DNA from: Truepera sp.
Lineage (GTDB): Bacteria > Deinococcota > Deinococci > Deinococcales > Trueperaceae
Length of the DNA stretch: 21,040 bases
Assembly: GCA_965218435.1 (NCBI GenBank)
Contig: CBDCKW010000008.1
Coordinates: 1-21,040, forward strand
Direction: 5' to 3'
In this document: positions 6,001-9,000 of the stretch, one piece after another
Position numbering within the stretch: position 1 is the first letter of the stretch
Layout: each line of letters starts with the position of its first letter
Program-made: the position numbers

Positions 6001-9000
6001 GATAGTACCGCCTAGAACAACCCCAAGGAGCATGGATAAAAAAGCTTCTACATCCATCATTGACCCTTTGACCGCTTGCTAGCTATCCGGTACACGTCGC
6101 GCTTATCGCCTGCCTTACGGATACCGATAACCAAGACTGTCACGACACCCTGACGCACTGATATTTCGTAGACCGCTCGGTAACGCTGTCCAGCTAGGCG
6201 GATGGTGTAGCGGTCCTGAAGATTACCGGTTAAGGGTTTGCCCCGTTTGGCGGGTTCGGTCTCGAGGCGCAAAAGCCCGGTAGAGATTGCTTTACGGGTG
6301 CGCTTGTCGGTGATGGCGAGAAGGTCGGTTTCAGCGGCGCTGCTGAGTTCAACAATAAAAGTATTCATATCCCGACGTTAAAGATTGGTGTGGGGGGAAA
6401 CGACGCGGCGTTCAAAGCTCTAGCTCGGCCATGATTTCGCGTAGCGGCCTCGAGGCTGTCTCACCCGCTTCGTGTTGCCGCACACGCTCTAAGATGTCCG
6501 GGAAATCGTTTAGCACGGCGTCCGTTTCAGGGTCGCCGGTATAAGGCACGCCCGCGGCGGTGAGTTCGGCGCGTCCCGGCTCCACTCTCTCTAAAAGGTC
6601 GTCAAAGCTTACCTGCTCACCGGTGAGCTGCTCGAGCGCGTCAATCACCGCCGCAAGGGTGTTGAGGTCGAGGCGCTTCATATCGCCGCGTGCAAGGGCG
6701 TAAACACTTCCCTGGGCAGCGCGGCCCTTCGCTGTCTGTACTAACCGGTAGGTGCTCAGGTCGTGGGCGTCTAAGTAATCGTCAAGTCTTATGCGGATGT
6801 CCATACTACAGATAGTAGCATTACTAACAGCTATTGACAAGTATTACAGGATGTTGTAGTATAGAGACAGCTAAGGGCAACGCCTGAGAAACGATTAACC
6901 CTTAGCTAGAAACGGAGTTCCAAATGCAGAATATCACCCTTAACAAAATCGCAGGCGCAAGCTACCGCACCCACGCTTTTAAGGTCTACAACGTTTGCCG
7001 TAACGGTGAGGTCGTCGGCACCGTTGAGTCTGACTTCGGGCTCGGCTGGAATGTTAAAGATGCTGAGCTGAACCAAGTCAGCCGTCACAGCACGATTAAA
7101 GCAGCGGTACGCGTCGCGGGACGGGCTCTTTAATGAGCCCCTTCTACTTTGCCGATGTCGAGATGTACAGCGACCGTGAAGAGGACTTACAAGCTTTATA
7201 CGCAGAACTGGCTGAAGAGGATGGGGCAGAGGATGAGCTGCCCCCTATCATTCAAGACGAGCTGCCTGACTATGATTTTTGGGGAGAGGCGGCATGATTG
7301 CCCCTCTCTTATCTCAACTCACAGCCGCTAAGAACGGTTTAGAGGATGCTCAAATCAACCTGTGCGGCGCGGTCACTGCTCACGCTGAAGCCAAGCGTGG
7401 GCTCGAGCTGCGTGAAGCCCTGAAGCCGTGTGAAGGCGTTGACGGTAAGAACGATAAGGAGCGGACAGCCAAGCTTAGGCTCGAGCTGGGTGCTGAGTAT
7501 GCGGCGCTCGCTGAAGCTGAGGACGCCTTAACTGAAGCCCGGTGTGCGTTTGAGGGAGCACGGCTCGAGTGGGATTTGTGCCGGTATCAGCTGCGGGTGC
7601 TCGAGCCCTTCAGAGAAGCGGCGTAAGCGGCCTGATAAAGAGAAGCCCCGGTTAAGTGCCGGGGCTTAACAGTTGACATTGCCAAGCAAAATCCAACGCT
7701 TATCGCGCGGTTGTTTTTTATTTAGGTGAGGTTCAGCTTGCATTCGTGCCGGTATAAGTTCCTCGACCATTTCCTTATGTGCGAGATACTCCTCTACAGC
7801 CTTGGGAACTATAGAGAAGTCCTTATTAGCGGAAAAAACAAATCTGTGAGCCTGTATGACTTGCACCTCATTCCACCTGTCCGCATCACTCTGACCCAGC
7901 AATTCTTGACCTGTAATCCCTTTTCTGTCGGGAGTAATGAACAAGTCGAGATGGGGCGTGAGTGGAAACACAAACATCATAGGCGGGTGGTCTTCCACAA
8001 TCTCATCTGTATAGAAGTGGACTTCCCCCATTAGAGTCAAGCTGTACAAACTTAGCGCGTCCCAATCGTCGTCGCTAGCGGGAACAGCTAGCGGGTACAA
8101 GAGCAAAGGGCTATCTGAGGTCAAGCGGAAAACATCTTCTCGGTACCTCTGTACACTCCATTCCATACTTACAAGCCTTTGTACCAGCTTTGGAACCGAC
8201 ATCTGTAGTGATTGCGCCTGTTTTACGGAGGGGTTCTCGGCAAGGTATTTCAACATTTCCATGAACTTATCGCTCACCTTGCCCTGCCTATAGCTTTCCA
8301 TATCGTGCCCTATCTCGTCAGCTATTCGGTTGAAGTGCTCAAGCTCTGTGTCAAGTTCTGCCATACGAGCGGCCTGCTGCTCCGGTGGCAGTTGAAGAGC
8401 CGCAAGGCGACGAGTTGCGAGGTCAATACGCTCCCTTGAGAGCATTGCTTCTATATCAGGAACCGTGTACTGGCTGTTTTCCTTTATGAAGTCCTCAAAG
8501 TATTGTGGGTTATCTTTAGCGGCATCTAAAAGGCTCTGTGTGCTTTCTGACTGTAGACCGCGAAACTTGCTAGTGCGGTGGTGCTGAGTGGACAGAAAGA
8601 GTGCTAAGTCATGTAGGTCAGAGTAAGTTAGACCGTCCGTAGTTTTTGCTTCTATCAGCTTTTCCAGTAGTGGTGCGGCACGGTTCTCGAGAGCCGTTAA
8701 GCTATCGTCAATAATCTGAGGTTTTTCACCTGTGATTCGGTAAAACCAGTCCTCCGACGCGATGTCCTCAACCATTTTATCGCCTATGTATCGGTCTTTT
8801 CCCTTAAAGTATGTGTGTACACGTTCTTTACCATTACGGGATTCAGGAGTCTTGAACTGCTTGAGATAAAACTGAGGCACGTAATGCTGATTTTTTCCAC
8901 CCATTAGATACTTTAGCGTTTTGGCGTCTCATGAAAAAGCCCCGGTTAGATGCCGGGGCTCTTCTACGTGGTTTTCAGCTACTCGAGCAGCTCGGCGGGC

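What a model noticed while it worked through the whole genome (the two positions that open the first line are those of the whole stretch)
6057..7626. A family of tRNA-site satellites and two free circles share one repressor / promoter-hairpin / three-gene cassette
The 10.5-kb integrase-less circle C8 and islands at tRNA-Val, -Met, -Ala and -Thr share an HTH gene facing away from a promoter with a conserved hairpin leader, followed by a 68-aa gene, an acidic 54-aa gene and a 110-aa helical-hairpin gene (the Thr island lacks the 54-aa call). The 13-kb circle C6 shares the HTH gene and leader. Their replication genes differ, so the cassette, not the replicon, defines the family.
Evidence so far: Paralogue clusters and sequences; 76-83% DNA identity of C8 to four islands, and circular repeats of C6 and C8; promoter and leader in 7 copies, shared arm-type repeats at 8 tRNA-linked sites. 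The 110-aa protein has 251 homologues, the best 120 at 72-89%, is in G004 and G005, folds as a helical hairpin at pLDDT 91; no PHROG match for the three genes.
(Added by a program. Inside this text positions count along the whole contig: contig position 1 is position 1 of the stretch shown here. "Call 12" and the like, gene names such as g00115 and contig names such as C1 are that model's own, and its searches are not shown. The text may have been shortened before it was handed on; [...] marks where a part breaks off. The agent that wrote the report below was given it as the finding of a first reader that could run no searches.)

Follow-up and report, generated by a model that had tools for sequence, protein, structure and literature searches.

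The report
Swappable switch shared by Deinococcota satellites
Small phage-parasite-like islands and free DNA circles of Deinococcus-type bacteria share a switch made of an exchangeable repressor, a strong promoter and an uncatalogued folded RNA leader, which drives small conserved genes that probably help the element settle in a new cell.

Summary
Largely confirmed, with corrections. C8 is a 10,471-bp head-to-tail unit. Promoter and leader occur in 7 elements of this genome, but only 4 keep all three genes intact; the Thr copy is broken.

There is no single repressor. The seven HTHs are 21-63% identical, the promoter spacer tracks the HTH, and the leader swaps independently. The constant part is HTH, promoter and leader: a covarying RNA hairpin not found in Rfam, which also marks divergent HTH genes in Deinococcus.

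The three genes are under purifying selection. Relatives of the 110-aa and acidic genes sit beside plasmid ArdC/ParB and phage RecT, Rad52-like, Sak4-like and SSB genes. One weak relative ends in an SSB tail.

Best reading: a repressor-gated establishment operon acting on ssDNA and repair functions; the function is inferred. UvsY homology is not supported. Two more integrase-less circles were found; episomal satellites are already known from Vibrio. The scan had noted this genome's terminase islands and SSB-tail mini-protein before, but not this cassette.

The parts
6057..6368 (-). RelE/ParE-family toxin gene, second gene of the leftward operon
   Evidence: Pfam ParE_toxin 28.8 bits, cut-off 23; phrog_1213 E 1e-8; 55-59% identical genes behind the HTH in the Val, Met and 778-kb elements
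6412..6804 (-). Cro/C1-type HTH repressor with a C-terminal extension (inferred antitoxin); probably leaderless, ATG 7 nt after the -10 box
   Evidence: HTH_26 E 0.004, below the curated cut-off; promoter scan; spacer co-variation
6812..6840 (-). Leftward sigma70-type promoter (TTGTCA-17-TACTAT, extended TG); its -35 overlaps that of the rightward promoter
6834..6862 (+). Rightward promoter TTGACA-17-TAGTAT; the spacer is the inferred operator
   Evidence: spacer identical in L068, whose HTH core is 95% identical
6866..6923 (+). Structured 5' leader: outer stem 6869-6877/6899-6907, inner 2-bp stem 6881-6882/6892-6893 closing a CC-N-AA loop, then the SD
   Evidence: covariation; CM hit 56 bits; no Rfam match
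6924..7133 (+). 69-aa beta-meander plus helix protein (variable slot 1)
   Evidence: pLDDT 82.5; fold shared with small uncharacterised phage proteins; pooled dN/dS 0.26
7133..7297 (+). 54-aa acidic two-motif peptide (18 D/E, 1 K/R)
   Evidence: 43 homologues; alignment; pooled dN/dS 0.07; plasmid relatives
7294..7626 (+). 110-aa helical hairpin (long helix, G-x-x-G-x-N-x3-R-x-A tip, short helix, long helix)
   Evidence: pooled dN/dS 0.18; match in 65 of 301 Deinococcota genomes
7643..7667 (.). GC-rich hairpin between the converging operons; scored as a terminator on the - strand, bidirectional use inferred
   Evidence: near copy at 8937-8960
3952..4503 (-). MerR-like HTH protein, found in 4 of 5 integrase-less elements and 0 of 27 integrase-bearing loci (many truncated)
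10127..13222 (-). Intact 1031-aa Toprim primase plus CyRepA1-like helicase Rep; the copy at 892-2751 carries the 139-bp gap
   Evidence: (CyRepA1 181 bits, cut-off 200)
8979..10187 (-). Four small genes after Rep; three have relatives in the Ala island, one in the Met island; no family match
7666..8904 (-). DUF4238 cargo gene in the slot where the islands carry RM, CBASS or SIR2 genes
16528..18097 (.). Second, identical copy of the cassette (unit repeat, +10,471)

Best explanation
A two-module early switch of PICI-like islands and satellite-like plasmids. Module 1 (immunity): a small HTH repressor, made from a leaderless or short-leader mRNA at the head of an HTH-(toxin)-integrase operon, binds an operator in the spacer of the overlapping rightward promoter; repressor and operator change together. 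Module 2 (early operon): a near-consensus promoter, a 5'-terminal RNA hairpin and two to three translationally coupled small genes. The modules are exchanged at about the transcription start. The operon fires when no cognate repressor is present (entry into a new cell) or when the repressor is removed. Its products most likely act on single-stranded-DNA and repair functions during establishment or replication: the 110-aa hairpin as an accessory of ssDNA annealing or recombination, and the acidic peptide as a two-motif binder related to a plasmid SSB-tail mimic. In the free circles a toxin behind an HTH-antitoxin fusion and a MerR-like gene stand where the integrase was and supply plasmid maintenance. 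SHOWN: anatomy, co-variation, modular swapping, RNA structure, selection, neighbourhoods. INFERRED: repression, trigger, leader role, protein functions, phage packaging. Confidence is about 0.85 for the switch and about 0.5 for the whole.
For: Spacer identity follows HTH identity over 32 loci (Mantel r 0.58): 19 pairs with HTH >=75% have 86% spacer identity, against 54% in 453 pairs under 50%. Leader identity follows it weakly (r 0.18). C8/L068: HTH 95%, spacer 100%, leader 64%; C8/L039: HTH 23%, leader 98%. Leader: 5 of 5 modelled pairs with changes on both sides, 95% of cells paired, 0 of 500 shuffles as high for cells paired and covariation score; inner stem in 42 of 48 against 230 of 1440 shuffles. 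A leader-only model gave 18 hits outside the training set: 14 have a divergent HTH and 12 a promoter, against 5 and 3 of 2000 random positions. Pooled dN/dS 0.07, 0.18, 0.26. Of 16 distant loci of the 110-aa family, 10 have a same-strand DUF3560 (4), Rad52-like (2, one with ArdC), RecT, SSB, ParB or SRAP gene within about 4.5 kb; L078 has a Sak4-type AAA_24 gene directly behind. On plasmid C3 the homologue lies with ArdC and ParB, read towards a MobQ-like relaxase, the side described as the leading region in PMC11541004. A profile of the acidic peptide's first motif finds a C5 plasmid peptide beside a 110-aa homologue (iE 3e-9) and next the C3 peptide ending like host SSB (rank 8 of 95,785 segments, iE 3.5). 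Toxin behind the HTH: 4 of 5 integrase-less elements against 6 of 27 integrase-bearing ones.
Against: No binding, expression or repression data. The 110-aa fold is generic: no PDB match at E<=0.001, and UvsY ranks 44th at Z 8.8, rmsd 3.6, 106 aligned. Profile comparison with UvsY gives 0.2%, and 0 of 117 members hit Pfam UvsY. Six of the 16 distant loci have no such neighbour, the loci were hand-picked, and no background from other mobile-element genes was counted. The link to the SSB-tail peptide is not significant alone (iE 3.5), and the acidic peptide does not end in the SSB tip. Loci are related, so Mantel and Fisher values overstate. Three of 7 elements in this genome lack an intact cassette. 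C8 has no recognised terminase or capsid gene, and no portal PF04860 or capsid PF05065 was found in G000.
Confidence: 0.5

Rival explanations
1. Helper-phage interference or defence operon: the same switch, but the small proteins are made on phage infection and block or sense the helper's recombinase or replication proteins.
For: Relatives of the 110-aa protein sit in phage recombination modules. The islands carry RM, CBASS and SIR2 cargo directly behind the cassette. A SaPI repressor that responds to phage recombinases is on record (PMC11846896, search listing and abstract start). The 69-aa fold resembles small phage proteins.
Against: The same families occur beside ArdC and ParB on mobilisable plasmids, which need no helper phage. 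No PADLOC match for the three genes.
Confidence: 0.2
2. Anti-defence operon in the strict sense: the acidic peptide is a DNA mimic or anti-CRISPR/anti-restriction protein under an Aca-like HTH.
For: Net charge about -17 and dN/dS 0.07; strong promoter with an HTH regulator; the host has two CRISPR arrays; plasmid relatives lie near ArdC.
Against: 0 of 71 spacers match C8, the islands or the fetched loci. The peptide has two short motifs on a variable linker and an uncertain fold. The slot is also filled by Zn-finger genes.
Confidence: 0.15
3. The HTH is mainly the autoregulatory domain of a toxin-antitoxin or integrase operon; the rightward genes are constitutive passengers and C8 is an ordinary small plasmid.
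For: The same HTH family heads stand-alone toxin-antitoxin-like loci on the chromosome (C9 147 kb, 1,942 kb, 3,734 kb). C8's Rep resembles a plasmid Rep family. C8 has no recognised packaging gene.
Against: 22 of 32 loci have no RelE/PemK match behind the HTH. The varying sequence that tracks the HTH is the spacer of the rightward promoter. C8 shares three post-Rep genes with the Ala island, L075 has terS and L068 a tape-measure-like gene.
Confidence: 0.15

Closest known systems
PICIs as defined in SatelliteFinder (PMC10085698, section 17 and passages read)
   Same: About 9-25 kb, tRNA-site integrase, HTH regulators, primase-replicase, terminase genes in some members, defence cargo, several per genome.
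   Different: The repressor faces a separate early operon and not the xis-primase operon, which is read towards it from the other end. There is a structured leader. No capsid-morphogenesis gene was found. The paper places over 99.9% of its PICIs in Proteobacteria and Firmicutes.
PISP / cf-PISP satellite-plasmids of Vibrio (PMC13230959, passages read)
   Same: 11-16 kb extrachromosomal circles without an integrase, related to chromosomal satellites, one with a MerR-like regulator.
   Different: C8 has no recognised ParA, capsid protein, protease or terS; its Rep is a primase-helicase fusion; it carries a RelE module.
Plasmid leading-region anti-defence islands (PMC11541004, passages read)
   Same: Small early genes, SSB-related functions and toxin-antitoxin genes; relatives of the 110-aa and acidic genes lie on this side of a MobQ-like relaxase on C3.
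   Different: Here the genes are on satellites behind a double-stranded promoter under a repressor; the leader model found no hit in the five plasmid-type loci searched.
T4 UvsY recombination mediator (PF11056)
   Same: Long helix, short tip helix, long helix; similar size; nearest named Atlas cluster (score 0.86, 14% of members); recombinase neighbours.
   Different: No sequence or profile similarity; the structural score is no better than for unrelated coiled coils.
Type II RelE/ParE and PemK/MazF toxin-antitoxin pairs
   Same: An HTH gene with a C-terminal extension directly followed by a toxin gene, in 10 of 32 loci.
   Different: The HTH domain also faces a divergent operon and heads the integrase operon; most family members lack the toxin.

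Membership tests
PICI (SatelliteFinder core) | Integrase | tested here: met
   Met for the islands (27 of 32 loci). Not met for C8: no integrase among 18 ORFs and no tRNA fragment.
PICI (SatelliteFinder core) | Regulator (alpA, merR or stl homologue) | tested here: met
   HTH_17 64-aa gene above cut-off; MerR-like and HTH_26 genes below cut-off.
PICI (SatelliteFinder core) | Primase-replicase module | tested here: met
   Toprim_3 and PHROG primase/replication hits for C8 Rep; primase and AAA genes in C6 and the islands.
PICI (SatelliteFinder core) | Small terminase subunit | tested here: inconclusive
   No hit for C8's 82-aa gene or for the 158-160-aa genes of Met and Thr; terS hit for L075 (E 8e-16); terL hit for the Met island.
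PICI (SatelliteFinder core) | Capsid-morphogenesis gene | tested here: inconclusive
   No match among C8 ORFs; several small genes are unassigned; the gene is also lacking in SaPIs.
PICI (SatelliteFinder core) | Induction and packaging by a helper phage | not testable with these tools
   No portal PF04860 or capsid PF05065 found in G000; no helper identified.
PISP satellite-plasmid | Extrachromosomal circle without integrase | tested here: met
   Head-to-tail joint in unitigs; absent from the chromosome assembly; independent relatives L068 (127-bp terminal repeat) and G035:C3 (about 11.0-kb period). A tandem array is not formally excluded.
PISP satellite-plasmid | ParA/RepA maintenance genes plus capsid protein, protease and terS | tested here: not met
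   None recognised in C8; Rep is CyRepA1-like, below cut-off.
UvsY (PF11056) | Sequence or profile match | tested here: not met
   0 of 117 members; hhalign 0.2% against a low-diversity UvsY alignment.
UvsY (PF11056) | Fold | tested here: inconclusive
   Z 8.8, rmsd 3.6, 106 aligned, rank 44 among generic helical hairpins.
UvsY (PF11056) | Heptamer that binds ssDNA and loads a recombinase (feature recalled) | not tested
   Oligomer not modelled; biochemical property.
SSB C-terminal tip mimic | Acidic tail ending in the host SSB tip | tested here: not met
   The 54-aa protein ends otherwise and has only internal D-E-L-P motifs; the weakly related C3, L048 and L049 peptides do end like host SSB.
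Anti-CRISPR operon | Self-targeting spacers or known Acr/Aca homology | tested here: inconclusive
   0 of 71 spacers self-target; no family match; absence does not exclude it.
Type II toxin-antitoxin (RelE/ParE) | Toxin-family gene directly behind a putative antitoxin gene | tested here: met
   ParE_toxin above cut-off; extension present in the 5 of 7 own-genome HTHs that precede a toxin and absent in the other 2. Neutralisation not tested.
Rfam RNA families | Match to a curated model | tested here: not met
   No match at E<=1 in window 1-10600 or over the leader in 13 further loci.

The most novel reading that the evidence does not exclude
Deinococcota satellites, plasmids and prophages share an undescribed way of taking over host ssDNA handling: an acidic adaptor descended from an SSB-tail mimic together with a new class of helical-hairpin recombination accessory. 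Both are switched on through a new cis-regulatory RNA whose conserved CC-N-AA loop binds a host or helper-phage factor, in a satellite family that moves between tRNA-integrated and free-plasmid lifestyles by swapping the integrase for a toxin and a MerR-like gene.
Probability: 0.2. Interest if true: 0.8.

Novelty: new variant of a known kind. Interest (0 to 1): 0.58.

Why it matters
It gives a marker (divergent HTH, promoter, leader RNA) for a large set of satellite-like elements in a phylum where my searches found no described satellites. It offers many natural repressor-operator pairs and an uncatalogued covarying RNA motif that can be tested directly. It links satellite early genes to plasmid leading-region and phage recombination genes. 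It also shows a possible route from integrated island to free satellite-plasmid outside Vibrio.

Tried and rejected
UvsY homology: an Atlas lead was not upheld by Pfam, hhalign or fold search. PDB sequence search gave nothing. tblastn of the 110-aa protein against phages and plasmids gave no match; two distant homologues gave none and one weak hit.

Complex prediction of the 110-aa protein with the acidic peptide: no answer, score 0.01, no evidence either way. The 69-aa fold had no PDB chain above Z 5.0; N4 gp8 at rank 39, E 0.12 is too weak to use.

Self-targeting spacers: none of 71. Run search: no RNA holder listed. Run X3 covers only short pieces and was not used. Rfam: nothing over the leader. 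Viral-contig scans gave 2, 1 and 0 loci. Scan look-ups by words and by sequence gave nothing relevant.

Literature searches that found no description of this family or leader: Trueperaceae + phage satellite, 0 papers; Deinococcus + PICI + satellite, 3 papers on SaPIs; Truepera/island terms, none relevant among 10 listed of 1,662; leading-region terms with DUF3560, 0; SSB-tip mimic terms, 2 unrelated. The library lacks most subscription papers, and no supplements were read; SatelliteFinder's tables could list some of these islands.

Rows dropped before counts: L074 (HTH cut by contig end); L041 and L074 from the 34 loci; L091 (same locus as training locus L058) and L107, L111 (identical to L093) from the 21 leader hits; L044's first gene from the 69-aa alignment (not homologous).
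Full report
1. WHAT THE WINDOW IS. The window is contig C8 of G000, about two copies of a 10,471-bp unit. Titled relatives are Trueperaceae. Unitigs from two runs of one sample, possibly the source sample, join 11471 back to 1001 without differences, so the head-to-tail form is not only a feature of this assembly. The 139-bp gap in copy 1 of rep has no unitig support and is probably an assembly error, although contigs drop rare variants. Unitig depth in run X1 is about 100 over C8 and about 40-60 for variant letters of the chromosomal paralogues; the tool warns that this is no copy number. A run of a second study holds short low-depth pieces about 95% alike. C8 encodes a Toprim/CyRepA1-like Rep, an HTH_17 gene, a MerR-like gene, RelE/ParE, DUF4238 and no integrase.

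2. THE CASSETTE IN THIS GENOME. Two overlapping sigma70-type promoters lie at 6812-6862. The leftward -10 box is 7 nt before the HTH ATG, the leaderless pattern reported for this phylum (PMC4007540, PMC12340547; search listing and abstract start only). The promoter-leader region occurs in 7 elements. The three genes are intact in C8, Val, Met and Ala, broken in Thr and at 778 kb, and replaced in C6. The Thr lesion also appears as a loose end in the unitigs. The 778-kb element lies beside a tRNA-Ala 3' fragment with arm-type repeats.

3. THE FAMILY. The 110-aa protein matched 10 of 121 genomes of the family and, as a profile, 65 of 301 genomes of the phylum. Of 34 leader-bearing loci tallied, 2 are cut by contig ends. 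Of the other 32, 27 have an integrase behind the HTH, mostly next to a tRNA (Val, Met, Ala, Thr, Trp, Arg, Pro), and 5 have none (C8, C6, L068, L075, L151). Cargo behind the cassette includes type I, ISP, MmeI and BanI restriction systems, CBASS, TIR and SIR2 genes. L068 is an independent 17.4-kb contig with a 127-bp terminal repeat, C8-type Rep (75%), HTH (87%), RelE and a 1,747-aa tape-measure-like gene (TMP_3 E 0.007, far below cut-off). G035:C3 repeats an 11-kb unit with the leader, HTH-PemK, a MerR-like gene (79%) and a related Rep.

4. THE REPRESSOR IS DIVERSIFIED AND SWAPPED. The seven HTH cores of this genome are 21-63% identical, and six loci use a visibly different Cro-like subfamily. 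Over 32 loci the -35/-10 spacer follows the HTH (r 0.58; 86% identity in 19 close pairs, 54% in 453 distant pairs), while the leader hardly does (r 0.18). C8 shares its spacer with L068 but its leader with L039. This is the pattern of repressor-operator immunity types joined to a common operon. Kinship inflates the statistics; the discordant pairs are the stronger evidence. RelE or PemK follows the HTH in 10 of 32 loci: 4 of 5 without integrase, 6 of 27 with. Other toxin types would have been missed.

5. THE LEADER IS A REAL RNA MOTIF. It starts a few bases behind the -10 box, with an outer stem of median 10 pairs. On 48 distinct copies, 95% of cells pair and 33 cells change on both sides; 0 of 500 shuffles reach either value, but 104 of 500 reach the count of 5 pairs with double changes, and the alignment was fitted to this structure. 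An inner 2-bp stem closing a CC-N-AA loop is present in 42 of 48 against 230 of 1440 shuffles, as GC/GC, GG/CC, AC/GU and CG/CG. Folding z-scores are below -2 in 23 of 32. Rfam has no match. The model hit 18 of 151 phylum genomes, none of 48 in family f3. Of 18 hits outside the training set, 14 have a divergent HTH, 12 a promoter and 5 the 110-aa gene; two have none of these and are likely false. A 5'-terminal stem would protect the mRNA (general knowledge, recalled); the conserved loop suggests a ligand as well (inference).

6. THE THREE GENES. All are under purifying selection (pooled dN/dS 0.26, 0.07, 0.18 over 7, 7 and 8 related copies). Slot 1 varies between genera; the 69-aa form folds like many small uncharacterised phage proteins. 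The acidic peptide has two conserved motifs on a variable linker. It is fused to other domains in two genera and replaced by Zn-finger genes in L044 and L068. Its first motif, or a profile match, lies upstream of 30 of 79 distinct 110-aa homologue segments. It has a clear relative on C5 and a weak one on C3 that ends like host SSB; the latter appears to be the mini-protein of earlier finding e1-7659703. The 110-aa family has 242 representatives at 50% identity with a conserved tip motif; its best structural matches are unnamed 104-127-aa phage proteins (TM 0.7-0.85, E>=0.004). UvsY homology is not supported. Neighbourhoods point to ssDNA and early functions in 10 of 16 hand-picked distant loci, plus a Sak4-type gene at L078 and ArdC/ParB on the relaxase-distal side of plasmid C3. 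That AAA_24 is Sak4-type and DUF3560 an early plasmid gene is recalled; the oriT itself was not located.

7. HOW IT MOST LIKELY WORKS. Shown: anatomy, co-variation, swapping, RNA structure, selection, contexts. Inferred: the HTH represses the rightward promoter; the operon fires on entry or derepression; its products modulate ssDNA, SSB or recombination functions; toxin and MerR-like genes maintain the free circles; phage capsids carry the elements. Rivals are helper interference (0.2), strict anti-defence (0.15) and a toxin-antitoxin regulator with passengers (0.15).

8. KNOWN OR NEW. The islands work like PICIs and meet three of five SatelliteFinder core features (PMC10085698, section 17 read). 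C8 works like a satellite-plasmid (PMC13230959, passages read) but fails that element's gene set, so it is not filed as a PISP. The switch layout, the leader and the three protein families were not found in Pfam, PHROGs, NCBIfam, PADLOC, Rfam or the paper searches. No supplements were read. Verdict: new variant of a known kind, interest 0.58. The family and the RNA motif are solid; the protein functions are not yet shown.

Noticed in passing
L068:158-5401: A C8-like integrase-less circle carries a 1,747-aa repetitive tape-measure-like gene but no recognised capsid, portal or other tail gene among the ORFs scanned.
   Followed up: partly
window:1001 against 11333-11472: 139-bp gap in copy 1 of rep, not supported by unitigs; probably an assembly error. 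C6 has a similar 62-bp offset between its repeats.
   Followed up: yes
G000:C3:18540-18719; L048; L049: 60-aa plasmid peptides ending like host SSB share a weak first motif with the 54-aa protein and lie upstream of 110-aa homologues.
   Followed up: partly
L055: A 7.6-kb contig in a genome titled as a cyanobacterium carries tRNA-Ala, integrase and this cassette at 72% identity; probably contamination from a Trueperaceae bacterium.
   Followed up: no
L006:11165-11935; L068:5451-5969: Both circles carry a stand-alone Peptidase_M41-like gene directly behind the HTH-toxin pair; it could act on the repressor or antitoxin.
   Followed up: no
G000:C9:975754 and 2055576 (attR of the Val and Met islands): Arm-type repeats at the right ends differ from those at the left ends, and second integrase fragments lie in or beside the Met island, suggesting tandem or replaced elements.
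   Followed up: no
G023:C1:603385, 671725, 696883: Three identical copies of an HTH-promoter-leader unit in one chromosome; in the one examined, IS200/IS605-type transposase genes follow.
   Followed up: partly
window:4516-4542 and 4131-4157: 27-nt imperfect inverted repeat upstream of and inside the MerR-like gene; a possible binding site.
   Followed up: no
G000:C9:775448-777154; C4:134-1840: A group II intron reverse-transcriptase-like ORF interrupts the integrase of the 778-kb element; the same ORF start occurs on C4.
   Followed up: no
window:5446-5631: PIN-domain fragment (E 0.012), probably the remnant of an earlier toxin gene in the cargo.
   Followed up: no
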